A DNA stretch of 64,000 nt from a virus. The position numbers were made by a program, and so were the translations under genes. A model generated the notes under the pieces. It was given only the letters and a program-made list of their open reading frames with translations, did no database searches and was not told the origin of the DNA. This document shows positions 4,323 to 64,000 of this stretch, piece after piece. Location of the stretch: the IMG/VR virus record IMGVR_UViG_3300036781_000230, positions 15,072-79,071 of that record; one strand, given 5' to 3'. The stretch's first letter is position 1; every line of letters begins with the position of its first letter.

Positions 4323-4355
4323 GTTTAAAATCTTATTATCAAGGAGAATCAAAAA

Positions 4356-7363: not shown

Positions 7364-7366
7364 GTC

Positions 7367-7792: not shown

Positions 7793-7795
7793 ATT

Positions 7796-7887
7796 AGGTT
7801 TTATATGCAAATAATGACTAAGTGTATTATCATGAATAATTTGCATATAATTCCTGACGCAACCTGGATTAACTAGAGAATGACTCC
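7796..7887. repeat. Dispersed element copy B
   Basis: TTATATGCAA 7801-7810, N30, TTGCATATAA 7841-7850, then CCTGA/CCTGG/CTAG at 10-bp steps. Confidence 0.8.
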
Positions 7888-8988: not shown

Positions 8989-8992
8989 AAAA

Positions 8993-10104: not shown

Positions 10105-10115
10105 AAAGGGCTCTG

Positions 10116-11315: not shown

Positions 11316-11318
11316 ATC

Positions 11319-11906: not shown

Positions 11907-11915
11907 TAAAGAACA

Positions 11916-12488
11916 ATGGCTGGCTCAACTAATCTTCTTCAATTTAATCCCGGCGCAGCTAATCAAGAAACTGATGCTCAATATGCAGCAGATTCTCAAC
12001 GAGCTGGTGGAACTATTAATGGTCAAATCTTTAATGATCAACTGGCTAATAAGTTATTCTATCAGCTCTCTACTTTCTGTACGGCTTTTGGATTGATGAT
12101 GGCTTCTAAAGGCTATACTATTACAGATACGGATATATCCGCTTTAGAAGGTCAATTAGCTAACGTTATCACAGCTGCTGATCTTAAAGCAAATCTTCAG
12201 ATTTTAGGATTCTCTTCTACTACTAACTTTAACGCTGCTACTAGTAATGGTTTCCAAGTTACTCTTTCTGGAAATATGGTTGCTACAGCATCTGGAGTTT
12301 CTCCTGGTCAAGAGGTTACTTTCATAATCATTCAAGACGCAACTGGTGGTAGAGATATTACCTGGGGCTCAGGATTTGCTGGAGGTCCTAGCCCAGCTCC
12401 TAACCCTAATCAAGTGTCTATAATCACTTTTTATGGTGATGGTGGTGGAACTCTTCGATCTAAGGTAGCTGGCGCAGTAACGAATTAA
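11916..12488 (+). CDS. Short tail fibre/baseplate adaptor
   Basis: N-terminal LANKLFYQLS anchor motif; C-terminal IIQDATGGRDITW domain. Confidence 0.7.
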   Translation: MAGSTNLLQFNPGAANQETDAQYAADSQRAGGTINGQIFNDQLANKLFYQLSTFCTAFGLMMASKGYTITDTDISALEGQLANVITAADLKANLQILGFSSTTNFNAATSNGFQVTLSGNMVATASGVSPGQEVTFIIIQDATGGRDITWGSGFAGGPSPAPNPNQVSIITFYGDGGGTLRSKVAGAVTN

Positions 12489-12499
12489 GGGAGATTTTC

Positions 12500-13078
12500 A
12501 TGCGTAATTTTTTTAAGATTAGTGTCGTTGTGTTGTTTTTAGTCTCAGTAGCCTGGGCTATCAACTATGCAAATCAGTATAACACTCATCTACTTAATTC
12601 ACTAGTAGATAACACGCCAATTGGACAGAGTCAAGCAGCGGCCGGTACATTTACTACTCTTAATGGAAGTTCTTCTACTATTAGCGGAAATCAAAACGTA
12701 GGAAGTTTTCAGATAGGTGGAGGAGCCCCAAACGGTCAAGTTTTGATGGGTAATGGAAGTACTTACATTCCTCAAAATATAGTTATTCCTCCAGCTGGAA
12801 GTCAAGTAGTTAGCACAACTATTACCGGTTGTTCTTTCGGCGGTTATAGCAATCTTAATTCCTGTGCTGGTACATTCTTTTGGACGACTCCTTTTGGTGA
12901 TACTAATTATGATATAACGGGATGCATAGCAAATAGTAATAATGCTGCTTCTGTTATTGTAGCTCAGACTGGAACAAAACAAACGTATGGATTTTCGTAC
13001 GTAGCAACTTTGATTATGATTAATGGCGCTGGAGGAGGATGGGCTCCTCAAATTACGTGCTCAGCTTACCACCACTAA
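12500..13078 (+). CDS. Tail-fibre-like protein with Sec signal peptide
   Basis: MRNFFKISVVVLFLVSVAWA leader; VDNTPIG...AAGTFTTL fibre repeat; C-terminal beta domain FWTTPFGDTNY. Confidence 0.6.
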   Translation: MRNFFKISVVVLFLVSVAWAINYANQYNTHLLNSLVDNTPIGQSQAAAGTFTTLNGSSSTISGNQNVGSFQIGGGAPNGQVLMGNGSTYIPQNIVIPPAGSQVVSTTITGCSFGGYSNLNSCAGTFFWTTPFGDTNYDITGCIANSNNAASVIVAQTGTKQTYGFSYVATLIMINGAGGGWAPQITCSAYHH

Positions 13079-13101
13079 TAGTTAGAAACCAGGAGATTTA
13101 G

Positions 13102-50885: not shown

Positions 50886-51269
50886 GTGAAGATCAAGAAA
50901 ACCACCGCCCCCGTCGAGTCCACCGCGCAGGATAACCAGGAAATTGTTTCTGCTGAGTACCTCGCAAACGATGCTCCTGCAGTTGCTACTGAACCGAAAG
51001 TCAAAGAGACACCAGTTGAGGAACGTCAGTATCGCCTCGTGACCCCCACGGATGAGCCTCTGAAGTTCCGTGGTAAACAGCGTCAAGTTGTATACGATGT
51101 TCTTCGTGCTCATGAGGGTGCTATGACGATTGCTCAGGTCGCAGAGCTCGCTGATAAGCTCGAGCTCAAAGCAGTAGGCGGCACGGAGCCCTCGGTACGC
51201 TACCACCTCCACCACATGACGAAGGATGGTCTCACTGAAGTCGTGAACCCCACGATCACCGTAGAGTAA
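50886..51269 (+). CDS. Winged-helix DNA-binding protein
   Basis: AGGAG RBS; KFRGKQRQVV...TIAQVA...VRYHLHHM; own promoter and downstream hairpin. Confidence 0.75.
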   Translation: MKIKKTTAPVESTAQDNQEIVSAEYLANDAPAVATEPKVKETPVEERQYRLVTPTDEPLKFRGKQRQVVYDVLRAHEGAMTIAQVAELADKLELKAVGGTEPSVRYHLHHMTKDGLTEVVNPTITVE

Positions 51270-51278
51270 CGTAACACT

Positions 51279-51304
51279 ATGCCTCAGTCTTCGGACTGGG
51301 GCAT
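51279..51304 (+). terminator. Hairpin with cUUCGg loop after wHTH gene
   Basis: ATGCCTCAGTC-TTCG-GACTGGGGCAT. Confidence 0.65.
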
Positions 51305-51322
51305 TCGTGGGTTTGCGAGCGG

Positions 51323-51362
51323 CCTGGAGGATCGATCCTCGAGGCCCTACACCCGTCTCGAG
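51323..51362. repeat. Right arm of long-range inverted repeat
   Basis: CCTGGAGGA-N4-TCCTCGAGGCCCTACACCCGTCTCGAG. Confidence 0.75.
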
Positions 51363-51528
51363 CGGCCTGGAGCGGGCTCATACGGCCTACAGGACATGTC
51401 CTCCAGGAATTGTGTCATTTCACGCGCTAATGGAAAACCAGCCCTCCCGACTGACATAATCCTGGGCCCGGCATTTTCTTAAGAAAAGCTCCCAGTATGG
51501 GGCACCAATCACGGAATATGTGCAATGA

Positions 51529-51900
51529 TCAAACGGCGTTCATAATAGAGAAGATTCTATCACACTCATCTTGAGTAAGAACACGACGATCAATGTAGGC
51601 TGGAGTAAGTTCAGTAAGTAGCCACTCAAGCCTAGAGTCATTTGAGTCGTAACCTACTTCTTTTTCTATTTCATTTGCGAGTTCTCTTAGGGCATCTGGG
51701 AGAGTATCCCCAAAACCCGCAAGTCCTTCCTGAATATCAGAACCTATAAGAGCCAAGACTTGATTACCATCACCTCTACAGTTAACAGCGCAAGGAACAC
51801 TTCTCATGATAGGTCTTTTAATGCTCATTTCTTCATCAGTCATGTTTTCCACTATACTTCTCCTTAATTCTTTTTCTAAGAGCTTCATCACTTTCAACAT
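51529..51900 (-). CDS. HicB-like fold hypothetical protein
   Basis: DGNQ..ALIG..IQEGLAGFGDT..DAL motif. Confidence 0.55.
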   Translation of the reverse strand: MLKVMKLLEKELRRSIVENMTDEEMSIKRPIMRSVPCAVNCRGDGNQVLALIGSDIQEGLAGFGDTLPDALRELANEIEKEVGYDSNDSRLEWLLTELTPAYIDRRVLTQDECDRIFSIMNAV

Positions 51901-52007
51901 AAAGTCCCCACAGTGGGTCCCAGCGAGCGTCAGGATGATCTTCAGGAAGAAACATCCTAGTTACCGAAGGCGGCCGCATAAGGTCATCTAATCTCTTGAT
52001 ATTATCT

Positions 52008-52277
52008 TCAGTCATAAAGTTTTCTATCGTGACTACAGTAGTCTACAGGCCTCTCTTGATCTTCTTGTGGAGTATCTGTTGGCATCCCACAAAATCTACA
52101 AGAGTATGGGTGATCCAGCAGGTACTGAATATCTCTGAGTTTCTGCTCTAAGGGACCTTCATTAAAGTGAGGTCTACTGACGAGATTCAGAATTCTATTC
52201 GTTAAAGTACGGTGACCATTCTTTGGAATACATTGCTTAACTCGCTCTTTATCTCGCTCAATTTTTCTCAGTAACAT
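52008..52277 (-). CDS. Hypothetical protein with C-terminal Zn motif
   Basis: CRFCG...YCSH. Confidence 0.5.
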   Translation of the reverse strand: MLLRKIERDKERVKQCIPKNGHRTLTNRILNLVSRPHFNEGPLEQKLRDIQYLLDHPYSCRFCGMPTDTPQEDQERPVDYCSHDRKLYD

Positions 52278-52279
52278 CT

Positions 52280-52648
52280 TTACGCTCTAGCATCTAATAT
52301 TCCTTTCCAATAACCCGCAGACTCATTAAAATAAGTATCGTATATAGTTCTTAGATTAGTACTAAATTTATCATCATATGATCTAGATAAAGAATCATAA
52401 TAAGACTGTACACTTATTTCTTTTCCAAATAGTGTCTTAATTGGAACTTGGTATTGACTGGCTAAAAATACTGCAAAGTCATAAAATTTCTGGGCCATTA
52501 TCCAGAGAAACTGATTGTCTGATGTGATAGGTCCCGTCACCTGTAATCCAGTTTCCTCAAAAGATGTTTCGGACGCAAGCGCCTTTGAATTGACGCAGAC
52601 GGCGATGGTGGTGGCCGCAAAGAGTCGGAGAAATGTTCTACGTTCCAA
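52280..52648 (-). CDS. Tat-signal protein carrying baseplate-J N-terminal-like fragment
   Basis: MERRTFLRL...ALA leader; SDNQFLWIMAQKFYD vs own ADYQWISALALKLND. Confidence 0.55.
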   Translation of the reverse strand: MERRTFLRLFAATTIAVCVNSKALASETSFEETGLQVTGPITSDNQFLWIMAQKFYDFAVFLASQYQVPIKTLFGKEISVQSYYDSLSRSYDDKFSTNLRTIYDTYFNESAGYWKGILDARA

Positions 52649-52841
52649 GTGAGCCTTCTTTCTGTAAAGCGTTTAATTCTTTTTCAGCGTCTGATTTTGC
52701 TTCTTCAACTGTTGCGAAATATTCACATGGGCCATAGAAGCGGTCGGGTGACGTGCCAAGCGTCCAGACGTACTTCGTGTGAAAACTATTAAACCAAATA
52801 TCTACCTGTACTCCAAGGTACTGATAACGAGCTACGAGCAT
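52638..52841 (-). CDS. Hypothetical early protein
   Basis: Coupled ORF. Confidence 0.55.
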   Translation of the reverse strand: MLVARYQYLGVQVDIWFNSFHTKYVWTLGTSPDRFYGPCEYFATVEEAKSDAEKELNALQKEGSLGT

Positions 52842-53032
52842 TATTTACCTATGCTTTTAAAGTATTTTACCATCAAGTCCATCGTACCAAAGTTTATTAT
52901 ATACGGTATAGCATCTGATTCATGATTAACGTTCGTATTCATCGAACTCTTAACTGCTAAAGGTCTACAATCGCAGCTAGGTTCTGGTTTTCCACACTTA
53001 CCACAAAGGGTCACAGGCATGGCTGTCCGCAC
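52841..53032 (-). CDS. Small Zn-binding protein
   Basis: CGKCG...CDC. Confidence 0.5.
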   Translation of the reverse strand: MRTAMPVTLCGKCGKPEPSCDCRPLAVKSSMNTNVNHESDAIPYIINFGTMDLMVKYFKSIGK

Positions 53033-53481
53033 TTTCCACTAAAACCAGGAGGTACCGGGGCACCACACAAAGAACACGTATTATAATCTTTCGCGTCCCA
53101 TTCTCCGAGTAGATATTTATCGTAGAAGTTAGTATTGTGAGGAAATTCTACGATTTCTGGAAGAGCGTAAGAACGCATAGCAGATTCAAGATCTTTCTTA
53201 GTGATATTTGGATTATCTTTTACTAGCATTACCTCATCTGGTATAAAGTATGGCTTATCTCGTTCTTTAAACCAAGCTCTGACTGCCTTAAGACTAGTTT
53301 CATTAGTAAGCCACTTATCTTTACGCCAACCATTAAAGTAAATAGTCCAATACTTACCTACACGTTTGGCTACGTATGTCGTGCCCCATCCCATTCTAAA
53401 CTCAAATCGGCGACTCGTCATCTGGACGACGGTGCTGACTGGACGAGGCGGTATAACTAGATTTACATTAACTATTCTCAT
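53011..53481 (-). CDS. Protein carrying terminase-like peptides plus Zn ribbon
   Basis: DNPNI and FYDKYLLGEW vs TerL DNPNI and YYQRYILGLW. Confidence 0.55.
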   Translation of the reverse strand: MRIVNVNLVIPPRPVSTVVQMTSRRFEFRMGWGTTYVAKRVGKYWTIYFNGWRKDKWLTNETSLKAVRAWFKERDKPYFIPDEVMLVKDNPNITKKDLESAMRSYALPEIVEFPHNTNFYDKYLLGEWDAKDYNTCSLCGAPVPPGFSGKCGQPCL

Positions 53482-53750
53482 TTTTCTACTATGACTGAAA
53501 TGGTGATGTGAGTCTTAGCCATTATCCTCTCATAACATTCTTTGAACATTTGCTGAACACGTTCATTACCTGCATCGGTGTAGGGAATTTTTTCTCCTGA
53601 GTTTAAAGCAATTAATAGAGAATGCTGAAGATCTGCAGCTAAAGCCTCAAGACCTTCCTCAGTTAGTTTACCTGGAATTTCTATGTAGATAGGTGAAGCA
53701 ATACGAGCATTTTTCTGTTGCTCTTTAAACTTTCGCTCATCTTCAGTCAT
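53478..53750 (-). CDS. Miniature, rearranged tail sheath C-terminal-domain homologue
   Basis: KIPYTDAG, ARIASPIY, HITISVIV all match own sheath motifs. Confidence 0.7.
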   Translation of the reverse strand: MTEDERKFKEQQKNARIASPIYIEIPGKLTEEGLEALAADLQHSLLIALNSGEKIPYTDAGNERVQQMFKECYERIMAKTHITISVIVEK

Positions 53751-54204
53751 ACGGCTCCGGTAAAGCTTTTTGAAGTTTACTGTCTAATTCAAATATCTCA
53801 GTTAAAGAAGGTCCATTAAATTCTATCTGATCAAAGTTTGTCTGATCATATTCCATTAGTACTCCCATAGGTCTGTAGCTATCAATTACCTGCTTAAGCC
53901 TACTCATTAGAGGAGGACTAACATAAGTAGGAACCGTAACTGTAATCGAAAACTTTTCACCGTTTTCTACGACTAACCAACTATCCCCAAGTAACCAAGT
54001 GAGCATTCGGGTCATTTGGTTTTGCCAGGGAATATATCTAGTAGTCAGATACTCATTAAATGGAATACCTACTGGATCTTCAAACATCCACTCAGATTCT
54101 TTTTCTACTATAGGTTCCAAAGGCTCCAGTAACTCCTTTGGAGCGATGGTAGCTATAGCAGCTACTCCAGCAATCTGCTTAAAGAATCCGCGTCTCGTAG
54201 TCAT
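53743..54204 (-). CDS. Tat-signal protein carrying DUF2612-like baseplate wedge fragment
   Basis: MTTRRGFFKQIAGVAAIA leader; W...LVVEN...RPMGVLMEY vs own W...IIIDN...RPQAVQYNY. Confidence 0.55.
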   Translation of the reverse strand: MTTRRGFFKQIAGVAAIATIAPKELLEPLEPIVEKESEWMFEDPVGIPFNEYLTTRYIPWQNQMTRMLTWLLGDSWLVVENGEKFSITVTVPTYVSPPLMSRLKQVIDSYRPMGVLMEYDQTNFDQIEFNGPSLTEIFELDSKLQKALPEPYD

Positions 54205-54329
54205 ATTTTCCTAGCCTTTTCCCACGCTCTTCTAATAGGAGGAGCTATCCAATTCGTAAATCTCTCCAGTAGCATTCCTAAGAAAAACCAAGTGGAGTTG
54301 CTCGAATTAAGCCACTGTCTGATGCTCAT

Positions 54330-54372
54330 AATTAATTATACAATCTATTGTACAAAGTTGTACACAACAATA
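54330..54372 (-). promoter_or_regulatory. Early promoter driving the 51.5-54.3 kb operon
   Basis: TTGTGTACAACT...TGTATAAT on - strand. Confidence 0.7.
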
Positions 54373-54440
54373 TTACTAAGCAGTTATGACGTGCAATAAA
54401 AACTTGCGAAAAAAGCCAGTGGTTGTTATATGATGAATTA

Positions 54441-54587
54441 TAAGCACTGAGTCATCCTTTAACCTTTCACGAAACACGTAAAACGAATCTCCTGACTAAG
54501 ATCGTTAGACGAAGCTATCCGGAGCTATAGCCGGAGCATTAGATCAGGTTGTACGTAGACTCGTGAGTGGAGGTTTAGTTATGCTTG
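54441..54587 (+). ncRNA. Long hairpin leader at start of packaging/head operon
   Basis: Nested complementary blocks; RBS and ATG 54581 lie in the 3' strand. Confidence 0.45.
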
Positions 54588-54748
54588 ATCCTCAAACAGT
54601 GTACTTAATTTCTATCAGTCAATATACTCCGACATTTAAAGAAGTCAGAGAAATGGCTCGCATACTTCATGCTCAAGAATGTTCAAGACAAGTTTTAACT
54701 ACTTCAAGCATTCTGATAGAATCAAATGTTCAGATTGGTCAAGCGTGA
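54581..54748 (+). CDS. Small hypothetical protein
   Basis: GGAGG RBS; similar to C-terminus of 47089-47592. Confidence 0.5.
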   Translation: MLDPQTVYLISISQYTPTFKEVREMARILHAQECSRQVLTTSSILIESNVQIGQA

Positions 54749-55022
54749 GAGGATGAAAATCTGTGATGCGGGAAACCATCTCTATTTTTTCCACTGTCCA
54801 GGTTGCGGTAATGCTCATGGGTTCTCTACTGAACCAGGTCGCTGGACTTTCAATAATGACTACGTCCAACCTACAGTCCAACCTTCAATTCTGTGCAACC
54901 GTGACGATCCACAGACTCGTTGTCACTCATTCATAGAGAATGGGAACATAAGGTTTCTCAATGACTGTCACCATGTCCTTAAAGGACTCACAGTGACGAT
55001 TCCTGATTGGGATAGTTTTTAG
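54726..55022 (+). CDS. DUF6527-like protein
   Basis: CPGCGNAH, WTFNND...PT..PSIL, CHSFI..G.I.FL.DC.H.L.G motifs. Confidence 0.75.
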   Translation: MFRLVKRERMKICDAGNHLYFFHCPGCGNAHGFSTEPGRWTFNNDYVQPTVQPSILCNRDDPQTRCHSFIENGNIRFLNDCHHVLKGLTVTIPDWDSF

Positions 55023-55164
55023 TTCATTGCTTCAAATGAGTTGCTAGCATACCTTTCTAGAGGGTTAACTCGAGTGCCGGCCGTTTGGAGTGTTGAACTG
55101 GGATAGAGCGTTTCACCTAGCCTATCTCAGATTTCTGTAACAATTAAGCCTATGGAGAAAGAGC

Positions 55165-55446
55165 ATGGACTGCTGTGTGTTGAGTTCTGAGGAAGTTGGA
55201 CAGTTAAAGCACTACAAAATTCTTCCTAATCATGAGAATCATCACCACATCCCATGTGAACAAGCTATTCTCGGGCTTAAAGATGAGGATTACGAACTCA
55301 TTAGTGGATTTAACGGTCGTCAGTATCTGACCAAAACTAAGTTGTTTTTCCTGCGCAAAGTACCTTCTGGTGGTAAAGGAGCTATTCCTATAATTCAGAG
55401 AGTAGTCAGTAACCACTTGAAGCATCTGATGCCGATCAAATACTAA
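55165..55446 (+). CDS. Hypothetical protein
   Basis: GGAG RBS; colinear. Confidence 0.55.
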   Translation: MDCCVLSSEEVGQLKHYKILPNHENHHHIPCEQAILGLKDEDYELISGFNGRQYLTKTKLFFLRKVPSGGKGAIPIIQRVVSNHLKHLMPIKY

Positions 55447-55459
55447 GGGAGGTTCAGCT

Positions 55460-55903
55460 ATGTCCCCTTCGAATAGATGGCAACCTGGACAGAGTGGAAA
55501 TCCTTCTGGAGCTCGTAAAGGTCCTCGTAAGAATAATCTCTTAAGTCCTGCTTACAAAGCAATTCTCGGAGATATTCTAGATCAAGAAACAAAAGAAGAA
55601 TTCAAGATGCCTGACGGTTCTACTTGGGCTGATCTTATTGCGAAACACGTAGTTAAACGAGCTGTAGGTAAAGTTCCAGATGAGAAAATTTGCTTTAGGG
55701 CTATTACTGAGCTTCGAGAGACGACTGAAGGAAAAACTCCTGAGAAAGTAATTGCAGCTGGAAGCAATGAAGAACTTGCTAATTTGGCTCGGATCATGCA
55801 GGGAGACCCGGCACCACCTGAGGGAGACGAAGCAGTTATTCAGGACGATGAGGTTACGGAAAATGCCGAAGCTGATTTTCATAGTTCGGCAAATGAGGAA
55901 TAA
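55460..55903 (+). CDS. terS: Terminase small subunit (DUF5681-like N-terminus)
   Basis: WQPGQSGNPSG motif; directly upstream of TerL. Confidence 0.8.
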   Translation: MSPSNRWQPGQSGNPSGARKGPRKNNLLSPAYKAILGDILDQETKEEFKMPDGSTWADLIAKHVVKRAVGKVPDEKICFRAITELRETTEGKTPEKVIAAGSNEELANLARIMQGDPAPPEGDEAVIQDDEVTENAEADFHSSANEE

Positions 55904-55908
55904 GAGTC

Positions 55909-57177
55909 GTGCCAATCTTTAAGCCATTCGGACAAAAAGCCCACGATTTCGTTAAGAGGCATCCGAGTCAGGATAAGAAGTACACTCTTCTAGAGGGTAG
56001 TGTTCGTTCTTCAAAGACGTTTGCTGTAGATGCTAAACTTATACTTCAACTTTGTAACTACAAAGTTAATGGAAAGAGAGTCATTTGCGGAGCTACTAAA
56101 CAAACCGTCTATAAGAACATGCTTCTGGATATATTCCAAGTAGTTGGTAAGAAAAACTACTCTTACAATCGAGCTTCTGGTGAACTCTGGTTATTCGGGG
56201 TTCAGTGGTTCATCATCGGAGCTCGAGACGAAGCAAGCTACAAGAACATTCTTGGTATGACCATTGGTATCGCGCTCTGCGATGAGTGGACTGAATTTCC
56301 AAGAAGTTTTACAATGCAGTTGTTTCTTCGACTTTCTCCCCCGGGCTCGAGGCTATATGCTACCACAAACCCTGGGACACCTCAGCACTATCTTTTCACT
56401 GAAGTCATTCATAACGAGAACTTTGCTCCTGATCTTGAAGTTATTCACTTCACACTTGAAGATAATCCCAATATTGAACCCGATCAAAAGAGACAGATTA
56501 TCGCCTCTCAGAAAGGTGTTTACTATCAGCGATATATTTTAGGGTTGTGGGTGGTGGCTGAAGGAGCCATTTACAAGGATGCGTGGTCTGATGATCTACT
56601 GTACAATGATCAAACTAGACCCGAAGGATTGTATGGTTCTGGTGGGTACAATAAGCATATTATAGCTATTGACCACGGGACGCACAATCCCTGTACGTTC
56701 TTAGAGTTCTTCGATGATGGTGAAGTAGCGTGGATGGATCGAGAGTATTACTGGGATTCAGTTAAAGAGATGAGGCAGAAAACTAATTCTGAATACGCCG
56801 ACGATTTAGAAGAGTTTATTGCCAGCTCTAGAGTCATAGGAGTTAACAATCCTATGATTGTAGTTGATCCTGCTGCAGCCGGTTTTAAAATTGAGCTAGT
56901 AAAACGCGGCTTATATGTAGTTGATGCGAATAATGAAGTTCTCGAAGGTATTCACCGAACCTCTGAAGTAATGGCTTGTAAAGCATTGAGGGTTCATGAA
57001 GATTGCGCGAATGAGCGTCGAGAATGTGGTCTATATTCCTGGGATAAAAAAGCCGGGGAAAAGGGCAATGAGCAACCACTCAAAGTTAATGACCATACTC
57101 AAGACGCTAAAAGATATGGAGTAATGGAACTGTTCCCAGAATGGAGAATGGTATCTACTCTTCAAAGAGCGGCTTAA
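55909..57177 (+). CDS. terL: Terminase large subunit (PBSX-like)
   Basis: EGSVRSSKT, CDE, TTNP, DNP, IDHG, VDPAA, NDHTQDAKRY motifs. Confidence 0.95.
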   Translation: MPIFKPFGQKAHDFVKRHPSQDKKYTLLEGSVRSSKTFAVDAKLILQLCNYKVNGKRVICGATKQTVYKNMLLDIFQVVGKKNYSYNRASGELWLFGVQWFIIGARDEASYKNILGMTIGIALCDEWTEFPRSFTMQLFLRLSPPGSRLYATTNPGTPQHYLFTEVIHNENFAPDLEVIHFTLEDNPNIEPDQKRQIIASQKGVYYQRYILGLWVVAEGAIYKDAWSDDLLYNDQTRPEGLYGSGGYNKHIIAIDHGTHNPCTFLEFFDDGEVAWMDREYYWDSVKEMRQKTNSEYADDLEEFIASSRVIGVNNPMIVVDPAAAGFKIELVKRGLYVVDANNEVLEGIHRTSEVMACKALRVHEDCANERRECGLYSWDKKAGEKGNEQPLKVNDHTQDAKRYGVMELFPEWRMVSTLQRAA

Positions 57178-57186
57178 GGAGCTAAA

Positions 57187-57516
57187 ATGGCACATAATTT
57201 TGGTGGTTTCTCAGCTTATGCTAATGATGAAGCACCCATCGAAGAAATGTCGAATGATGGTGGACTTCCTGGTTCTCCTTACTATGCTGGAGACGGTGGT
57301 GATGGTTCTGGCGTAATGAGACGTCATCATGTGGAAGGTCTTCCTGATCTCGATCGTAAACCGGCTGAAGACTCGATGTCTATTCCTGAGGGAATGAATT
57401 CGGGAATGAGTGGAGATTCACTTGGACCAAGCGGTAAGAAATTTACCGAACATCTTCATTCTCGTAAAAGTGATGGTAAATTTGAACCATCATCTTTACG
57501 AGGAAAGAACGAATAG
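57187..57516 (+). CDS. Low-complexity head-module protein
   Basis: AAGGAG RBS; HSRKSDGKF motif; several AxD sites. Confidence 0.6.
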   Translation: MAHNFGGFSAYANDEAPIEEMSNDGGLPGSPYYAGDGGDGSGVMRRHHVEGLPDLDRKPAEDSMSIPEGMNSGMSGDSLGPSGKKFTEHLHSRKSDGKFEPSSLRGKNE

Positions 57517-57544
57517 TAGTTAAATTCGCAGTACTGAAAGGGAA

Positions 57545-57832
57545 ATGATGAAACGCCTTGCCTATACTCTCTTGCTTCTAACGGTGGTTCCTCTGACACA
57601 AGCTCAGACTCCTACTCCGCCTCAGTCTCAACCGACCCAAACTCTGACGAATGATCCAGTTTTTCGACAGATGGTAACTGAACGTGAACTTCTATTTAAG
57701 AAACTCCAAGACATTACTGAGTTTCAACAGTTCATGCAGGTTGAGCGAAGCATCGAGCAATACATGGCTTCTCATCCTCAGGCTCCTGATCCTAAGAGTG
57801 CTGTTCCAGTAAAACCTGCTTCGAAGAAGTAA
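57545..57832 (+). CDS. Secreted small protein
   Basis: MMKRLAYTLLLLTVVPLTQA signal peptide. Confidence 0.6.
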   Translation: MMKRLAYTLLLLTVVPLTQAQTPTPPQSQPTQTLTNDPVFRQMVTERELLFKKLQDITEFQQFMQVERSIEQYMASHPQAPDPKSAVPVKPASKK

Positions 57833-57853
57833 TTCTAAAAGAAAGGAGGTCTG

Positions 57854-59503
57854 ATGCCACGCAAGAAATCTACCTCTAGTATCAGACCTCTTCCAGCCAA
57901 TGACGATGCTAATTACGTTCGTCGTCCTAGTGGTATTGCTACAGACAGTTATAGCAATGCTCCTGCTCGTCTGGGTACTGGTACTCCTAATCTTGTACAG
58001 GCTGGCAACTATCCTCTAATTCGTCTTACTGAGGATTATCCGCTTATACTCAGTCTTTATCGAAGTTCTTGGGTTATTCGTAGAGTCATAGACACTGTAG
58101 CTAATCACATTTACAGTTCTTTTCCTACTCTTACGGCTGATCTAAAGCCTGAGCAGATAAGAGATTTTGATAGAGTAGTTCGAAAGACAGGCACTCTTAC
58201 TAAACTGCGCTCAGCCCAGAAGTGGGGGCGACTCTTTGGTGGCGCAGGTGCTGTGATTGTAATTGAAGGTCACGACGACTTGATGCAACCACTTAGTTTG
58301 GATGATGTGGAAGTAGGTTCTTTCAAAGGACTTATTCCTTTAGATCGTTGGTCTGGTATCATTCCAGGACCTCAAATCGATTCTAACATCAATAACATCG
58401 GAAATTTCGGTTTACCTCTTTACTATAACTGTATAATGGATGCTGGAAATGTGAACATCCATCACAGTCGAATTCTACGGTTTACTGGTAGGGAACTTCC
58501 TCAGTGGGAAGTACAAGTTGAACTTTACTGGGGAATGTCAGAAGTTGAAATCGTTTTCGATGAGCTTCGAAAAAGAGATTATAGTTCTTGGAACATCGTT
58601 TCTCTACTTACTCGTGCTCAAGTCTTAAGTATTGAAGAACCGCAGTTAGCTACTCTGATGTCTGGAGCTGGTGGCAGCAATAAGTCCTACGGTGATTTCA
58701 TTAAGAGAATGGAATCTATTAGCCAACTTCTTAATAATCAAGGACTGTTAGTTCTCGGTAAAGACGGCAAGCTTCAACAGACTTCATACGGATTCGGTGG
58801 TATTTCTGACGTTTATCATGAGTTCATGAAAGACCTTGCGGCTTCCTGTGAGATTCCGTACGAAATCATCTTTGGAAGAGAATCTGGTCTTGGAAGCAAT
58901 TCTGAAGGTTCTCTTCAGCTTTATGATAATCTCATCGAAGAAAAACGTAAATCTGAAGCTGATCCTAATATGGATAGACTTATTCCTATTATAGCTCAGA
59001 GTACTTTCGGTTTCGTTCCCGATGATATCGACCACGCATGGTCGCCGTTTAGATCGCTATCGCAAGAGCAGCGTAATAATCTTGCTCGTGGAACTACTAC
59101 CTCTATTGTTGAGGCCTTCAATTCCGATCTAATTACTAAACGTGAAGCACGAACTGAACTCAGAAATTCTAGCTTAGTTCATGATCAATTTAGTAGCATC
59201 ACTAAAGAAGCTCTAGCAGCAACCCCAGATAAGTTCGCCTCTGAGCTTGGTATGGGAGAAGTACAGGTACCTGAAGGAGGAGGTGATCCATTCTCTGAAG
59301 GAAACAAAGAGGAAAAACCTGCTAAAGAGAAATCTGATGATGACAAATCCGACAAAGAAGAGTCTTCGAAGAAATCTAAAAAGAAGAAAAGTAAATTAGC
59401 AAAAGATTCCTATCCTTCAGTTGAGAGTGAATCTCTCAAAAATCCAATAGGCTTACTCGACTGGATAAGTAATAAAATTAATCTATTTAGGGCTTCGCAA
59501 TGA
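57854..59503 (+). CDS. Portal protein (DUF1073-like)
   Basis: LYRSSW, WGRLFGGA, IHHSRILRF, WGMS, IPYEIIFG motifs. Confidence 0.9.
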   Translation: MPRKKSTSSIRPLPANDDANYVRRPSGIATDSYSNAPARLGTGTPNLVQAGNYPLIRLTEDYPLILSLYRSSWVIRRVIDTVANHIYSSFPTLTADLKPEQIRDFDRVVRKTGTLTKLRSAQKWGRLFGGAGAVIVIEGHDDLMQPLSLDDVEVGSFKGLIPLDRWSGIIPGPQIDSNINNIGNFGLPLYYNCIMDAGNVNIHHSRILRFTGRELPQWEVQVELYWGMSEVEIVFDELRKRDYSSWNIVSLLTRAQVLSIEEPQLATLMSGAGGSNKSYGDFIKRMESISQLLNNQGLLVLGKDGKLQQTSYGFGGISDVYHEFMKDLAASCEIPYEIIFGRESGLGSNSEGSLQLYDNLIEEKRKSEADPNMDRLIPIIAQSTFGFVPDDIDHAWSPFRSLSQEQRNNLARGTTTSIVEAFNSDLITKREARTELRNSSLVHDQFSSITKEALAATPDKFASELGMGEVQVPEGGGDPFSEGNKEEKPAKEKSDDDKSDKEESSKKSKKKKSKLAKDSYPSVESESLKNPIGLLDWISNKINLFRASQ

Positions 59504-59949
59504 AAACTCTATTTGCAAATGCTCTCGATGGTCTTTACTGGGCTAATGACTCATTACCTACTAAGAAATTTCATGACTTAACTTTAGTCATCGAAACTCC
59601 TAAGTTCGAGATGAGACAAGGTCCTGGATGGATGTCCAGCCCACCGGCCGACTACGGCTATATCCTGGATACTACAGGTGCTGACGGTGACGAGATGGAT
59701 TGCTATCTAGGACCTAACCCAGAAAGTACTATAGTATACGTAGTTGATCAGAACAGAATGGATAGTTCTGAATTCGATGAGCATAAGTGTATGCTGGGCT
59801 ATAAGTCTATGGCAGAAGCCAAAAAAGATTACTATGATGGCCACACTCATGGTACTCAGATCTTCAGAGGTATAACTGCCATGACTCTGAGCGTATTTAA
59901 AGCTTGGCTTAAACATGGAGATGTCTCTAAGCCTATAATTTTACGGTAA
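59500..59949 (+). CDS. Inorganic pyrophosphatase-like domain protein
   Basis: IETPK..R, YGYI..T.GADGDEMDC, FDEHKCMLG motifs. Confidence 0.8.
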   Translation: MKTLFANALDGLYWANDSLPTKKFHDLTLVIETPKFEMRQGPGWMSSPPADYGYILDTTGADGDEMDCYLGPNPESTIVYVVDQNRMDSSEFDEHKCMLGYKSMAEAKKDYYDGHTHGTQIFRGITAMTLSVFKAWLKHGDVSKPIILR

Positions 59950-60108
59950 CAAGATTAAAAGAGACTTATATGACTAACGATGAAATCTATCGATTAGCAA
60001 AGGCTGAAGACGTACGTTGTATTAAGCCTCTTATGAATTTAGTTACTCTAGCTGCTCTGGAAATTCTTAAATTAGAAAGTAAAACTCCAGTACCAGAGGG
60101 AGTGAAAT

Positions 60109-60972
60109 TTGTCGACCTCTTTCCTCGTCCCTGATCGTATAGAATCTGCTTATAGATCAGCTATATCAAAAGTAGTTATGTCTTGGGTTCCTCCAAAGTT
60201 AAAAGGCATAAGTCCTTCTTATTGGCTGAAAGAACTAGCTGATGTTAGTACTCGTAAAAGTATTATTAATGCTAGTACTAATATAGCAGTAAATATGGTG
60301 AGTAGAGTCAATGTGGTAAATGTAAAGTCTTGGAGAGAAGCTGCTCTCAAGGCCCAAAGTAGCAGGTACATTTATGATCTTCTACAACAAGAGTTATCTG
60401 GTCCACTAGGAATACGAGTTAGACAATTAGTTTTAGAAAATGCTAGAATAGTAGGACAAATACCTGGCGATGTCGCTGATATTCTGTCTGAAGAAATAGC
60501 TAAAGCTCAACAGCAAGGAACTAGACCTGAAGCCCTCGAAGCCCTTTTGAAACATCGCTTCACAGACATAATGTCTTGGAAAATAGCTCAGGTAGCTAGA
60601 ACTCAGTCTGGGTCAGCTAGTACTGCGTTAACCAGAGCTCGAAGTGAAGAACTAGGACTTCCATGTTTTATCTGGGATACTTCTGAAGATAGACGAGTTC
60701 GTCATTCTCACCAGATCATGGACGGTGTTGTAGTTTTCTGGAATGATTTACCTTCTCCTGAATCTTTAGCCGGGCAAAAAAGTTCTTTCGGTCGTTATGC
60801 TCCTGGAGATTGTACTAACTGTAGGTGTTATCCTCGTCCAGTGTTAACCCTTGAAGATGTTTTCTCTAAGAAAACTAATCTTATTAAAGTATACACTGAT
60901 GGTCATATAGTTAAAATGACTAGAATGAATTTTTCTAAGAAATCTGGTATTGAATCCAGAATGGCTGCTTAA
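60109..60972 (+). CDS. Minor head morphogenesis protein (Mu gpF/SPP1 gp7-like)
   Basis: ARTQ, W.T..D.RVR.SH, PG...NCRC motifs. Confidence 0.88.
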   Translation: MSTSFLVPDRIESAYRSAISKVVMSWVPPKLKGISPSYWLKELADVSTRKSIINASTNIAVNMVSRVNVVNVKSWREAALKAQSSRYIYDLLQQELSGPLGIRVRQLVLENARIVGQIPGDVADILSEEIAKAQQQGTRPEALEALLKHRFTDIMSWKIAQVARTQSGSASTALTRARSEELGLPCFIWDTSEDRRVRHSHQIMDGVVVFWNDLPSPESLAGQKSSFGRYAPGDCTNCRCYPRPVLTLEDVFSKKTNLIKVYTDGHIVKMTRMNFSKKSGIESRMAA

Positions 60973-60983
60973 GGAGAATTACT

Positions 60984-61397
60984 ATGAAGAATTTGGTCCG
61001 AATTATCTTAGCTCTTTTGCTCGGAACATCTGTTTGTCTCGCGCAGTCTGCTGGTCCAGTTGCTGCGGTTCCTGGTACTCCAGGTGCTGTTGCTGTATAT
61101 GGAACTCCTATTAACGGAACTCCAGTCATTGTTCCTGGCACTGTGATTCCGACGAACGGTAAGAGTGTACTTACTGGTACTATTACGGCAACTACAGCAA
61201 CTACGGCTCCAGCAACTATTACTGGAGTAACTACGAGTTCGGTTTGTGTTTTCTCTGCTGCTAATGCTATAGCTGCGGCTGCTATTATAGCAGATAATGC
61301 TTTCATTACCCCTACTGCTAATACAGTAACTCTTACATTTAGCGCAGCTCCAGCGACTACAGGTGGAATCTTTAAAGTTCATTGTACTGTGAACTAA
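60984..61397 (+). CDS. Signal-peptide protein with beta domain shared with fibre C-terminus
   Basis: MKNLVRIILALLLGTSVCLA leader; AAGGAG RBS. Confidence 0.65.
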   Translation: MKNLVRIILALLLGTSVCLAQSAGPVAAVPGTPGAVAVYGTPINGTPVIVPGTVIPTNGKSVLTGTITATTATTAPATITGVTTSSVCVFSAANAIAAAAIIADNAFITPTANTVTLTFSAAPATTGGIFKVHCTVN

Positions 61398-61406
61398 GAG
61401 GATAAT

Positions 61407-61607
61407 ATGGCAATTGATCCTGGAAAATCAGTTTTTCCATCAGATAATCAAACTCCCTTTGAAGGTGTTGAGAATCTAAATCCTGGTAATGGTGGTGGAA
61501 ACAGTGGTGCTGTACTTAGTCCAGCTCCTGGTCTTGGTTTATCTGCTTATCAAGATCCTAGAGTTCCTGTGAAAGCACCGTTACCTAATCGTCAAGGAGG
61601 TAGCTAG
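61407..61607 (+). CDS. Small Pro/Gly-rich head-module protein
   Basis: GAGGA RBS; colinear. Confidence 0.55.
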   Translation: MAIDPGKSVFPSDNQTPFEGVENLNPGNGGGNSGAVLSPAPGLGLSAYQDPRVPVKAPLPNRQGGS

Positions 61608-61609
61608 CC

Positions 61610-61948
61610 ATGGCAAAAATCAATGGCGGATATAGCGCAGTTTCATGGGGTCCTACTGTGGATTTAACTCCACACGATAATGGACCTATTCCAGAAATGA
61701 GTACAAGCATTCCCAGTTCAATTCCTGAGCTTGGAATTCTCACTGATGGTGATCCCTATTCTGGAATAGGAAACTACGGTAGTTCTGAAATTCCTCCGGC
61801 TATGGATTCTGATTTTTCAAAGTTAGAACATAAGTTAGAGCATAAACCGGGAGTTACCAATCCTGCTGGCCTCGCAGCAAGTATTGGAAGAAAAGAACTC
61901 GGACAAGCTGAAATGACCCGTCGAAGTGAAGAAGGTCGTAAGCACTAA
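61610..61948 (+). CDS. Head-module protein
   Basis: AGGAGG RBS; F.KLE..L...GV.NP.GLAA.IGRK..G motif. Confidence 0.6.
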   Translation: MAKINGGYSAVSWGPTVDLTPHDNGPIPEMSTSIPSSIPELGILTDGDPYSGIGNYGSSEIPPAMDSDFSKLEHKLEHKPGVTNPAGLAASIGRKELGQAEMTRRSEEGRKH

Positions 61949-63348
61949 TGCCTAAGTATTACTCATTGATGCTTAGTCCCAACATCTCAAAAACTGTTGA
62001 GGGCTATCTGATATGTAAGGATGTTCCTCTTTGTCGTAGTGGCTATCAAGATTATCTAGGTAAAGAACTAGAAGATTTTACCGGCTACGAAAAATCCTGG
62101 GATTTGAATCCAAATCAAATCTACAGAGTATATCGACCTAAAGATGAAGTTCTTCATCCAGATTTCATTGCTAGTCTCGAGGGAAAGACTACAGTAGATG
62201 AGCATCCCGAAGGAAACGTAGTTCATGTTGATAATGAAAAAGAGGTCAACTGTGGACACGTTCAGAATGTTCGTCAAGGTCCCATTATTGATGGAGAAGT
62301 TACCCTCATCGGTGACATTATCATCAAGGATCTGGATCTTATTGAAAAAGTTCGACCAGAAAGCGATCCGGATAATGAATACGGAACCGCTGTTCGTGAC
62401 GTAAGTTGCGGCTATGGTCTTCACCTCAAGCGTCTCGATGATGGGACGATTGTGATGCATCGGTTGCGTGGAAACCACGTAGCTGTAGTTGAAAAAGGTA
62501 GGGCCGGTCCAAGGTTTGCTATCAAGGATTCTGCTCTGCCCGAAATCAAAATAATCAAGGAGCCGATTATGTCACTAAGAAAGACGATTATCGGGCGAGG
62601 AATCCAAGCACTCTTTGGAGATATCAGCCAAGCGGAAAAAGACAGCCTCATGGCTGAGCTTGACGCTTCTGGTACCGCTAAGATTGCGACAGATGCTGAA
62701 CCCAAGGAAATGCACCCTGCTCACGCTTGCTTGGATCGCTGCTTGTCAGCGATGAAAGCGGGAGACTCCGCAGCTCTTGAAGAGCATAAGAAAGAACTCT
62801 TCAAACACATCGGTCATCATGAGCCTGAGCACATGGATGATTCTGAGGTGGAAAAGCTCAAGGATGAAGAGAAAGAAGAAAAGAAAGAGCACAAAGCCGG
62901 TGATGAGGAACTCGAGCAGGAAGAAAAAACTCCTGCAGAAGAATCCGAAGAAACCCACGCTACTGACTCTGAAAAAGCTGAGAAAGAGATCAACGATCCT
63001 GGTGAATCTGTTCTCAAGGCCGCTAACGATTCTGTTCGTGATTACATTCGAAACACTCGTCCTTTGGTTGCAGTGATCGCAAGCAAGGATAAGAGCAAAC
63101 GTTCGAAACATGAGCAAGTTATGCTTGATAGTTACAACGGCGCTGTTAAAGGCCTTAACTCTCAGGTTGGTCGTCGATCTACTTATTCGGCTCTTGCTCG
63201 TACGAAGAAACCCGAAGGTATTCCTGCTTTGGCTACTGATTCTTCAGCAGTTACCAAAGCTCCTGAGACCTGCAATTGTTTTGATGGTGTTCCGTACAAG
63301 GTCGGTCTCAAACGTCACGAAACCGCTCATCAGAAGGGAGCTAACTAA
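61948..63348 (+). CDS. Prohead protease/scaffold (DUF2213-like)
   Basis: EGYL, RSG.Q.Y, VYRP.DEV, SCGY, NHVAVV..GRAG motifs; charged C-terminal scaffold region. Confidence 0.88.
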   Translation: MPKYYSLMLSPNISKTVEGYLICKDVPLCRSGYQDYLGKELEDFTGYEKSWDLNPNQIYRVYRPKDEVLHPDFIASLEGKTTVDEHPEGNVVHVDNEKEVNCGHVQNVRQGPIIDGEVTLIGDIIIKDLDLIEKVRPESDPDNEYGTAVRDVSCGYGLHLKRLDDGTIVMHRLRGNHVAVVEKGRAGPRFAIKDSALPEIKIIKEPIMSLRKTIIGRGIQALFGDISQAEKDSLMAELDASGTAKIATDAEPKEMHPAHACLDRCLSAMKAGDSAALEEHKKELFKHIGHHEPEHMDDSEVEKLKDEEKEEKKEHKAGDEELEQEEKTPAEESEETHATDSEKAEKEINDPGESVLKAANDSVRDYIRNTRPLVAVIASKDKSKRSKHEQVMLDSYNGAVKGLNSQVGRRSTYSALARTKKPEGIPALATDSSAVTKAPETCNCFDGVPYKVGLKRHETAHQKGAN

Positions 63349-63353
63349 CCAAT

Positions 63354-63914
63354 ATGCCAGCCTCAGTAATTCCTGTAAAAGGACTATACCTCGGCTTTGT
63401 CGGCAACATCAGCAACGAAGGTTTCTCTCTTCGTACTGCTCGGCAAGTCAATCCTTCGGATACGAATCCTATCGCCTTCGGCGAAACCTTCGTTCTGAAT
63501 GCCAACAACACCTACTCCAGTGTCAAGACCTTTGTTGCTGCTAGTGGAACCGTTACCGCTGCGACTCCGATGGGAATTGCTGTTAGTAACGTCAACATTA
63601 ATCCTACCTATAACACTCAAGGTACGGATGGCGTTAACACCCCTGGTGGAGTTTATTTGCCTGGGACCATCATGGATGGCCTTGTTCAAGGAACTATTAA
63701 CGTCAGCTGCAATAACGGTACTCCAACAGCTGGTGGAAATGTCTATATTCGGACAGTTCTCAACGGTGCTATTCCGAATGGAGTTATCGGTGGACTCGAA
63801 GCTCAGGCGGACGGCTCAAACAGCGTTCTCTACCCGAACTTCAAATGGAAGACTGGTTTCCTCGAGACGGATCTTACGGCTCAGGTTACTATCCTTCAGC
63901 GCACTATTGCCTAA
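63354..63914 (+). CDS. Capsid decoration/cement protein
   Basis: Between protease and capsid; IAFG, GTINV, GGNVYIR motifs. Confidence 0.7.
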   Translation: MPASVIPVKGLYLGFVGNISNEGFSLRTARQVNPSDTNPIAFGETFVLNANNTYSSVKTFVAASGTVTAATPMGIAVSNVNINPTYNTQGTDGVNTPGGVYLPGTIMDGLVQGTINVSCNNGTPTAGGNVYIRTVLNGAIPNGVIGGLEAQADGSNSVLYPNFKWKTGFLETDLTAQVTILQRTIA

Positions 63915-63932
63915 TCGGCGGAAAGGTAAGAA

Positions 63933-64000
63933 ATGAATCCCAGAGAATATCAACAGAGCCTAAACGCTCTGCGCAGTGGGAAGGTACTTTCCGATGCCGC
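63933..64000 (+). CDS. Probable major capsid protein, 3'-truncated by window edge
   Basis: AAAGG RBS, ATG 63933 (MNPREYQQSLNALRSGKVLSDA); assigned by synteny only. Confidence 0.55.
   Translation, partial: MNPREYQQSLNALRSGKVLSDA

What the first reader, a model, noticed from the sequence alone, without database searches (positions are those of the whole stretch)
52280..52648. Tat-like signal fused to a baseplate-J N-terminal fragment
Seen: leader MERRTFLRLFAATTIAVCVNSKALA (RRxFL plus AxA). It is followed by TSDNQFLWIMAQKFYDFAVFLASQY, which matches own BppJ SADYQWISALALKLNDNMGLCQLAY ungapped (D, Q, A, K, D, Y identical; hydrophobic pattern kept). Known: Tat exports folded proteins and can carry bound partners. 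Inference: the bait could bind a cytoplasmic sensor or rival baseplate subunit and drag it to the membrane or periplasm.
Basis: partly seen in the sequence, partly recalled or inferred. Interest (0 to 1): 0.72.

Follow-up and report, generated by a model that had tools for sequence, protein, structure and literature searches.

The report
Tat-leader phage protein with portal piece
A small gene near the start of an apparent early operon in an uncultured soil phage joins a conserved bacterial export-type (twin-arginine) leader to a short helical hairpin that resembles part of the phage's own portal protein, not the baseplate protein first proposed; its function is untested.

Summary
The ORF is real (window 52280-52648, minus strand, 122 aa, TTG start). 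Its twin-arginine-type leader is conserved in 11 relatives from related phages and is under purifying selection, so the 72-aa database gene call is truncated. The leader has the Tat consensus and layout. It is the only TAT_signal (PF10518) match in the whole phage genome, but it scores below Pfam's cut-off (13.8 vs 22.7 bits).

The claimed baseplate-J similarity is chance. 98% of shuffled baseplate sequences give an equal or better 25-residue match, and BLASTP, HMM and hhalign find nothing.

The only own protein the core resembles above noise is the portal (residues 317-363). hhalign gives P 1.4e-4 to 2.5e-5, and 0 of 120 column shuffles reach the observed score. Secondary structure is colinear in two separate AlphaFold2 models. 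A leaderless paralogue in a relative has Phage_portal_3 as its top Pfam hit (E 0.035, below cut-off).

Best reading: an early, exported or membrane-targeted mini-protein built from an old portal piece, function unknown. Earlier, unchecked notes of this scan describe the same design (Tat-type leader plus a piece of a virion protein) on other phage DNA. My five literature searches found no description of it.

The parts
52280..52648 (-). Target gene: 122-aa small protein (TTG start at 52648-52646, stop at 52282-52280).
   Evidence: ORF list. Eleven relatives. Purifying selection along the leader and core. The database gene call of 72 aa from the internal ATG (P0001) omits the conserved N-terminus.
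52654..52658 (-). Shine-Dalgarno-like GAAGG, 5 nt upstream of the TTG start. The start overlaps the end of the upstream 67-aa ORF (stop codon at 52638-52640) by 11 nt, which suggests translational coupling.
   Evidence: Sequence read directly. No other start codon exists in the open frame upstream of the RR motif.
52574..52648 (-). Twin-arginine-type leader, residues 1-25: a short n-region, the RRxFL motif, a 13-residue uncharged h-region, and a c-region with Lys and A-L-A.
   Evidence: PF10518 six-frame hit at window 52598-52648 (13.8 bits, E 0.009). 5 of 9 relatives hit PF10518 and 3 of 9 hit TIGR01409. Leader dN/dS is 0.11-0.18.
52523..52573 (-). Linker, residues 26-42. It begins with the family-invariant (D/E)-T-S motif and is predicted to be disordered.
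   Evidence: Alignment A2. AlphaFold2 pLDDT is below 50 for residues 22-37. Selection is relaxed here (dN/dS 0.38-0.62).
52382..52498 (-). Conserved core, residues 51-89: a helix, a short helix (V-P-x-x-x-L-F-G) and a second helix. This is the segment that resembles the portal.
   Evidence: hhalign against a 37-sequence portal alignment gives P 1.4e-4. The core-only alignment gives P 2.5e-5, and 0 of 120 column shuffles reach it. The AlphaFold2 model has helices at 43-66, 70-74 and 80-121.
58802..58942 (+). Segment of the phage's own portal gene (portal 57854-59503, PF06381), residues 317-363. It is the putative source or homologue of the core.
   Evidence: Pfam E 1.9e-77 for the portal. The hhalign register is shown. 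The portal AlphaFold2 model has H317-331, H336-340, a loop, and H350-385, colinear with the target's model.
53743..54204 (-). Second small protein with a twin-arginine-type leader in the same leftward gene string (153 aa). Its family sits directly next to the target's family in relative L004.
   Evidence: It has no above-noise similarity to any own protein. It has a weak Pfam Phage_Mu_Gp48 hit at E 0.01.
54335..54364 (-). Sigma-70-like promoter match (10 of 12) at the head of the leftward gene string that contains the target. A terminator-like hairpin lies at 51437-51455.
   Evidence: Consensus scan. Site counts are not above shuffles, so this is weak evidence.

Best explanation
The ORF encodes a real 122-residue protein of an uncultured soil myophage. 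It lies in a string of small genes that runs divergently from the terminase and structural genes, which is probably an early operon.

Its first 25 residues are an export-type signal peptide of the twin-arginine kind. I infer that it takes the protein to the host's Tat translocon at the cytoplasmic membrane. The leader would then be cut after A-L-A, releasing a helical hairpin of about 95 residues into the periplasm or envelope, or it would stay uncut as a tether.

The hairpin's conserved core is most likely an old, diverged copy of a portal segment. From the general portal fold, this segment would run from the second stem helix through the channel (tunnel) loop into the long following helix. 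In the copy the loop is 8 residues shorter.

Shown here: the gene, conservation and selection on the leader, the Tat-like layout, and the above-noise similarity to the portal. Inferred: actual Tat dependence, cleavage, the mapping onto portal structural elements, and the function. My best guess at function is action at the cell envelope early in infection, for example exclusion of related phages.
For: The gene and its true start:
- Eleven family members keep the N-terminus.
- Leader dN/dS is 0.11-0.18 with pS 0.64-0.69, as low as the core at 0.14-0.16.
- A GAAGG sits 5 nt before the only possible start codon.

Leader of the Tat type:
- RR, F+2 and L/I/M+3 are invariant.
- The uncharged h-regions are 11-18 residues long, Ala/Thr/Gly-rich, with mean Kyte-Doolittle 1.2-2.1.
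- By eye, 8 of 11 members have a basic residue in the c-region.
- 9 of 11 have a small residue at -1.
- PF10518 hits only this leader in the six-frame genome. It hits 5 of 9 relatives, and TIGR01409 hits 3 of 9 with best E 0.0017.
- A Chthoniobacteraceae MAG ORF starts with a very similar leader.

Portal-like core:
- hhalign family against portal alignment gives P 1.4e-4, with reversed controls at P 0.5-0.8.
- The core-only alignment gives P 2.5e-5 at 75% probability. The score is 38.3 against shuffles of mean 13.8, sd 2.4, max 23.1.
- The portal is the top non-self hit among 91 own open frames (27.6 against 17.1 or less).
- Five family members align to the same portal HMM region.
- A leaderless paralogue (L008:985-1233) matches the family HMM at E 4e-4. 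Its top Pfam hit is Phage_portal_3 at E 0.035.
- The helix, short helix, loop, long helix order is the same in two separate AlphaFold2 models.

Context:
- In relative L003 the gene comes first in the small-gene string that runs away from the terminase module, and in L004 its family lies directly beside the second RR-leader family.
- Relative L009 has three RR-leader genes in a row.
Against: - The leader scores below the curated cut-off of PF10518 (13.8 vs 22.7 bits) and gets no TIGR01409 hit.
- No dedicated predictor (TatP, SignalP) was available.
- The host is unknown, so the presence of TatABC is unknown.
- Two family members lack a usable A-x-A site.
- The h-region is more conserved than hydrophobicity alone would require, which could point to another role.
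- The portal link appears only at profile-profile level. An HMM search of 1.84 billion proteins found no portal, and sequence-to-HMM scores are 8 bits or less.
- Foldseek and VIA-align gave only generic helical hairpins.
- The core alignment was trimmed after I had seen the match.
- Nothing bears on the function.
Confidence: 0.45

Rival explanations
1. The protein is an exported or membrane-targeted orphan with no relation to any virion protein. The leader is a real signal peptide, but the portal resemblance is a chance or convergent helix-turn-helix pattern.
For: No portal appears in the exhaustive HMM search. Sequence-to-HMM scores are 8 bits or less. hhalign probability is only 32-75%. Fold searches are unspecific. 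Column shuffling is a lenient null for helical sequence.
Against: The portal is the single outlier among 91 own open frames. Reversed controls are flat. Phage_portal_3 is the top hit of all Pfam for the leaderless paralogue, and it is the only phage family among the three Pfam families that any of the nine relatives matches. Secondary structure is in the same register in both models.
Confidence: 0.2
2. The leader acts as a cytoplasmic-face membrane tether or a Tat 'hitch-hiker' handle. The portal-like hairpin binds a cytoplasmic partner, such as a portal-binding phage protein of a competitor or a host sensor of portal proteins, and removes it to the membrane or periplasm.
For: The core resembles a subunit-packing part of the portal. 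Tat can carry folded complexes (established knowledge). The gene is placed early. Another gene in the same string (53478-53750) resembles the phage's own tail sheath.
Against: There is no evidence of any partner. An A-x-A cleavage site fits release after export better than tethering. The second RR-leader protein of the operon resembles no own protein.
Confidence: 0.15
3. The leader is an ordinary Sec signal peptide (or signal anchor) that happens to carry two arginines. Export occurs unfolded through SecYEG.
For: The leader is below the cut-off of both Tat models. Its n-h-c layout with A-x-A fits Sec as well. The mature domain is small, helical and without a cofactor, so it does not obviously need export in the folded state.
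Against: The invariance of RR together with F+2 and L/I/M+3 in all 11 members fits the Tat consensus. So do the weakly hydrophobic Ala/Thr/Gly-rich h-region and the frequent basic residue in the c-region, a known Sec-avoidance feature.
Confidence: 0.1
4. One reading: the mature part is a fragment of the phage's baseplate-J protein used as bait.
For: Only the by-eye alignment, with 6 of 25 residues identical.
Against: 98% of shuffles do as well. BLASTP reports nothing there. The HMM domain scores -1.8 bits. In the hhalign scan the baseplate protein ranks 9th of 91 with P 0.14. No Baseplate_J or phrog_6 hit appears for any of nine members.
Confidence: 0.02

Closest known systems
Bacterial twin-arginine (Tat) signal peptides (Pfam PF10518 TAT_signal; NCBIfam TIGR01409)
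   Same: The RRxFL motif directly after a short n-region, a weakly hydrophobic h-region of 11-18 residues, a c-region that often has a basic residue, and A-x-A. Relatives match both models at sub-threshold to marginal E-values.
   Different: The leader is carried by a phage gene in an early-looking operon on a small cofactor-less helical protein. The target scores below the curated cut-offs. The h-region and a (D/E)-T-S motif after the leader are unusually conserved. Tat dependence is untested.
Phage portal protein, Phage_portal_3 (PF06381): the phage's own portal and cyanophage Pam3 gp3 (PDB 8HDS, E 3e-38 to the portal alignment)
   Same: About 40 aligned columns (target 51-89, portal 317-363), including the (I/V)-P-x-x-x-(I/L)-F-G turn and the following Q-x-Y motif. 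The order of helix, short helix, loop and long helix is the same.
   Different: Only a hairpin is shared, not the portal fold: no clip, wing or crown. The loop is 8 residues shorter. Identity is 26%. The match is below threshold in every sequence-to-profile search.
Phage superinfection-exclusion and envelope proteins with signal peptides (T4 Imm and Sp, T5 Llp, TP-J34 Ltp, HK97 gp15)
   Same: They are small accessory phage proteins made early (or in lysogeny) and sent to the membrane or periplasm. This is the kind of role I guess for the target.
   Different: Those proteins use Sec, lipoprotein or transmembrane targeting. There is no sequence or fold similarity (no PHROG hit), and no functional test exists here.
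Baseplate J / baseplate wedge subunit (phrog_6; own protein at window 10116-11315)
   Same: Nothing above chance.
   Different: No BLAST, HMM or profile-profile similarity.

Membership tests
Twin-arginine (Tat) signal peptide | Consensus motif (S/T)-R-R-x-F-L-K at the boundary of the n- and h-regions | tested here: met
   The target has E-R-R-T-F-L-R. RR, F+2 and L/I/M+3 are invariant in 11 members.
Twin-arginine (Tat) signal peptide | Uncharged, moderately hydrophobic h-region followed by a c-region with small residues at -3 and -1 | tested here: met
   The target has a 13-residue uncharged run (mean Kyte-Doolittle 1.67), then Lys and A-L-A. 9 of 11 relatives have a small residue at -1.
Twin-arginine (Tat) signal peptide | Score above the curated cut-off of PF10518 or TIGR01409 | tested here: not met
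   PF10518 gives 13.8 bits against a cut-off of 22.7. TIGR01409 gives no hit in the genome. Relatives reach best E 0.0057 and 0.0017.
Twin-arginine (Tat) signal peptide | Export that depends on TatABC and on the RR pair | not testable with these tools
   This needs localisation in wild type against a tatC deletion, and with RR against KK. The host is unknown (soil metagenome).
Baseplate_J / phrog_6 baseplate wedge | Significant profile or pairwise similarity to baseplate J proteins | tested here: not met
   No Pfam or PHROG hit for any of nine members. BLASTP finds nothing at the claimed site. 98% of shuffles match as well. hhalign P is 0.14, rank 9 of 91.
Phage_portal_3 (PF06381) | Match to the portal domain above the gathering score, covering the portal fold | tested here: not met
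   The target has no Pfam hit. The best relatives reach E 0.15 and E 0.035, covering about 45 of 357 model positions.
Phage_portal_3 (PF06381) | Local homology to portal residues 317-363 (a derived fragment, not a family member) | tested here: inconclusive
   hhalign gives P 1.4e-4 to 2.5e-5 at 53-75% probability. 0 of 120 shuffles reach the score. The portal is the top own ORF. The two models are colinear. There is no support from HMM or fold searches.
Superinfection-exclusion proteins | Blocks entry or growth of a second phage when expressed | not testable with these tools
   Neither host nor phage is in culture. There is no sequence similarity to known exclusion proteins.

The most novel reading that the evidence does not exclude
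The gene belongs to an undescribed class of phage mini-proteins that put a piece of the phage's own virion or morphogenesis proteins behind a twin-arginine export leader. Here the piece is the portal's channel-side hairpin. Such proteins would use the folded-protein export route either to display that piece in the envelope or to carry a bound cytoplasmic partner, such as a rival phage's assembly protein or a host sensor of portal proteins, out of the cytoplasm.
Probability: 0.2. Interest if true: 0.85.

Novelty: new variant of a known kind. Interest (0 to 1): 0.55.

Why it matters
Tat signal peptides are known almost entirely from cellular cofactor enzymes. Five literature searches here found no description of phage small genes from such early gene strings that join a Tat-type leader to a piece of the phage's own portal. 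If the export and the portal origin both hold, this is a simple, testable case of a virus recycling part of a structural protein into an envelope-directed accessory factor. It could bear on superinfection exclusion or on evasion of host sensors that recognise portal proteins. It also corrects a truncated gene call: 72 aa in the public protein collection against 122 aa.

Tried and rejected
Sequence and family searches:
- Pfam, PHROGs and NCBIfam on the target gave no family at meaningful E-values.
- tblastn and megablast against 50,697 phage records gave no match.
- The ESM Atlas gave no usable hit.
- A profile search of PDB sequences gave only designed coiled coils and a weak protein-glutaminase match, which I judged to be chance.

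Structure searches:
- Foldseek against PDB and BFVD, and VIA-align wide, returned only generic helical hairpins.
- A missing portal match there does not show that the folds differ.

Complex prediction:
- The job paired portal residues 55-470 with target residues 40-122. It returned no verdict (score 0.00), which counts neither for nor against binding.

Sequencing runs:
- No RNA holder was listed. The single DNA holder is a soil metagenome and is probably the source sample.

Tools and scans that did not run or gave little:
- The genome-contig scan returned only a bacterial Tat-signal look-alike.

Ideas tested and rejected:
- A lipoprotein signal is rejected, because the target's Cys18 is not in a lipobox and is not conserved.
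- The second RR-leader protein (53743-54204) is not a copy of the DUF2612 wedge protein: BLASTP E 67, and nothing above noise in hhalign.

Literature:
- Five searches found no phage-encoded Tat substrate of this kind.

Full report
WHAT IS THERE

The finding's coordinates hold a minus-strand ORF of 122 codons (52280-52648) with a TTG start. No other start codon exists in the open frame upstream of the arginine pair. A GAAGG lies 5 nt before the TTG. The start overlaps the end of the preceding 67-codon ORF by 11 nt, which fits translational coupling.

The public protein collection holds only a 72-residue version that starts at the internal ATG (P0001). That call is too short, for three reasons:
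- The N-terminal 50 residues are conserved in all relatives.
- Between the window's copy and two diverged copies, leader dN/dS is 0.11-0.18 with synonymous sites near saturation (pS 0.64-0.69).
- That is as low as the conserved core (0.14-0.16). The linker and the C-terminal tail are more relaxed (0.38-0.83).

WHERE IT SITS

The window is bases 15072-79071 of a 79,071-bp IMG/VR virus record. It is a myophage, with a terminase (55909-57177), a PF06381 portal (57854-59503), a DUF3383 sheath-like protein and baseplate genes. Its DNA is held by a soil metagenome run.

The target lies in a string of small leftward genes (about 54330 to 51530). This string runs divergently from the small-terminase-like and terminase genes. 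It has a sigma-70-like match at its head and a terminator-like hairpin at its end, both weak consensus evidence.

THE FAMILY

- A word-indexed search found three proteins.
- An exhaustive HMMER search of 1.84 billion representatives found eight, all 72-152 residues long and all from metagenomes. No longer or fused form appeared.
- Scans of viral and metagenome contigs added loci L003/L005, L004/L007 and L008/L009.
- In L003 the gene is the first of the small-gene string that runs away from the terminase module.
- In L004 it is directly followed by a member of a second family with a twin-arginine-type leader. That second family is also present in the window at 53743-54204.
- In a 55%-GC relative (L009) three consecutive genes start with RRxFL leaders.
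- In the target's own genome a motif scan finds such leaders only on these two genes and their second copies, apart from one hit in an overlapping frame that I judged spurious.

THE LEADER

All 11 members keep RR, Phe at +2 and Leu/Ile/Met at +3. After the motif comes an uncharged run of 11-18 residues, rich in Ala, Thr and Gly, with mean Kyte-Doolittle 1.2-2.1. Reading the c-regions printed by eye, 8 of 11 have a basic residue. Nine of 11 have a small residue at -1, and the target has A-L-A. All members then have (D/E)-T-S.

Pfam TAT_signal matches 5 of 9 members (best E 0.0057) and TIGR01409 matches 3 of 9 (best E 0.0017). Searched against the six-frame translation of the whole phage record, PF10518 hits exactly one place, this leader. 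The score is 13.8 bits at E 0.009, below the 22.7-bit cut-off. TIGR01409 finds nothing. A Chthoniobacteraceae MAG ORF begins with a closely similar leader.

So the 'Tat-like' description is justified at the sequence level. Formal membership is not shown, and Tat dependence cannot be tested here.

THE BASEPLATE-J CLAIM

The quoted baseplate peptide is at 10242-10316, inside the phrog_6 protein at 10116-11315. The evidence against the match:
- The ungapped alignment scores 18 in BLOSUM62 with 6 of 25 identical. 98% of 500 shuffles of the baseplate protein contain an equal or better 25-mer match to the target.
- BLASTP does not report it.
- The family HMM gives it -1.8 bits.
- No member hits a Baseplate_J model.
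- In an hhalign scan of the family core against all 91 open frames of 110 or more residues in the window, the baseplate protein ranks 9th, with a score of 14.8 and P 0.14.

The match is chance.

WHAT THE CORE RESEMBLES INSTEAD

The same unbiased scan has one outlier, the portal, at 27.6 against 17.1 or less for everything else. The lead first came from the family HMM and from the ungapped-window ranking. Further tests:
- hhalign of the nine-member alignment against a 37-sequence portal alignment gives P 1.4e-4 at 53% probability.
- Reversed-sequence controls give P 0.5-0.8.
- A twelve-sequence core alignment gives a score of 38.3, P 2.5e-5 and 75% probability. 120 column shuffles give a mean of 13.8, sd 2.4 and max 23.1.
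- The register is target 51-89 against portal 317-363, with an 8-residue deletion in the loop.
- Five members align to the same portal HMM positions at low scores.
- A leaderless paralogue in the 55%-GC relative (L008:985-1233) matches the family HMM at E 4e-4. Its top hit in all of Pfam is Phage_portal_3, at E 0.035 over model positions 253-300.
- Phage_portal_3 is also one of only three Pfam families matched by any of the nine relatives, by one member at E 0.15, and it is the only phage family among them.
- AlphaFold2 gives the target helices at 43-66, 70-74 and 80-121, with pLDDT 78-89 in the core. It gives the portal helices at 317-331 and 336-340, a loop, and a helix at 350-385. The element order is the same in the aligned register.

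From the general portal fold I infer that this segment is the second stem helix, the channel (tunnel) loop and the start of the long following helix. I did not verify this mapping.

Against homology:
- The exhaustive HMM search found no portal.
- Fold searches gave only generic hairpins.
- I trimmed the core alignment after seeing the match.

I put the portal origin at about two in three.

MECHANISM

Shown: a selected, conserved export-type leader; a disordered linker; and a conserved helical hairpin.

Inferred: the leader takes the protein to the Tat translocon early in infection. The hairpin is then either released into the periplasm after cleavage at A-L-A or held at the membrane.

What it does there is unknown. 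A role at the envelope against related phages is my best guess, and I hold it weakly. The complex prediction of the portal with the hairpin gave no verdict.

RELATION TO EARLIER NOTES OF THIS SCAN

I looked at earlier notes only after the portal result. Unchecked AI notes describe the same design on other phage DNA: a twin-arginine leader plus pieces of capsid, portal or terminase proteins. A note on this same window proposes an operon of virion-protein mimics.

My tests of that operon note gave mixed results:
- The sheath resemblance of the 90-residue ORF is supported.
- The baseplate-J assignment is refuted.
- The DUF2612 assignment of the 153-residue ORF is not supported.
- Of the operon ORFs I compared with the own proteome, only the target shows an above-noise portal resemblance.

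These notes are leads, not evidence.

VERDICT

The object is a small phage protein with a Tat-type leader and a probable portal-derived hairpin. I found no description of this design in five literature searches. Its function is untested.

Noticed in passing
window 51353-64000 versus record bases 1-13235: The first 13.2 kb of the 79-kb record are colinear with its last 12.6 kb, at 67-90% nucleotide identity. The record therefore looks like a wrap-around join of two related phages with a unit of about 66.4 kb, not a genome with diverged repeats. Logan contigs of the holding run include exact pieces at depth about 10 and variants about 86% identical at depth 17-43. The 'paralogues' at the record's start are probably orthologues from a sister strain.
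   Followed up: partly
window 53478-53750 (-): A 90-aa ORF in the same gene string resembles residues 362-404 of the phage's own sheath-like protein (2293-3726). BLASTP gives 34% identity at E 1.5e-4. In hhalign the sheath-like protein is its top own ORF at P 1.5e-4. It also hits phrog_9590 (E 1.3e-6) and, weakly, the tail-sheath PHROG and DUF3383.
   Followed up: partly
window 53743-54204 (-); L004:8383-8781; record bases 2297-2743: A second tiny family (three members) has a twin-arginine-type leader that ends in (V/I/L)-A-P rather than A-x-A. It has no above-noise similarity to any own protein. Its only hit is a weak Pfam Phage_Mu_Gp48 match at E 0.01.
   Followed up: partly
L009:1767-2816 and L008:985-1233: A 55%-GC relative has three consecutive RRxFL-leader genes. 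The first two share a motif right after the leader. It also has a leaderless paralogue of the target's core, whose best Pfam hit is Phage_portal_3.
   Followed up: partly
window 52280-52648 versus record bases 1127-1504 and L003:3852-4181: The gene is a mosaic. The sister-strain copy and the L003 copy are nearly identical in the leader and linker (pS 0.06-0.12) but diverged in the core (pS 0.69). This implies a recombination breakpoint between the leader module and the core.
   Followed up: no
window 51265-51535: The intergenic region between the convergent gene strings is conserved across three diverged phages. It contains hairpins, including one with compensatory changes and a perfect 22-nt palindrome. 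There is no Rfam match. It could be bidirectional terminators or a small RNA.
   Followed up: partly
window 57854-59503: The closest solved relative of the portal is gp3 of the freshwater cyanophage Pam3 (PDB 8HDS, E 3e-38). The closest cultured-phage terminases are only 34-37% identical and come from Gram-positive hosts. The host cannot be read from these hits.
   Followed up: no
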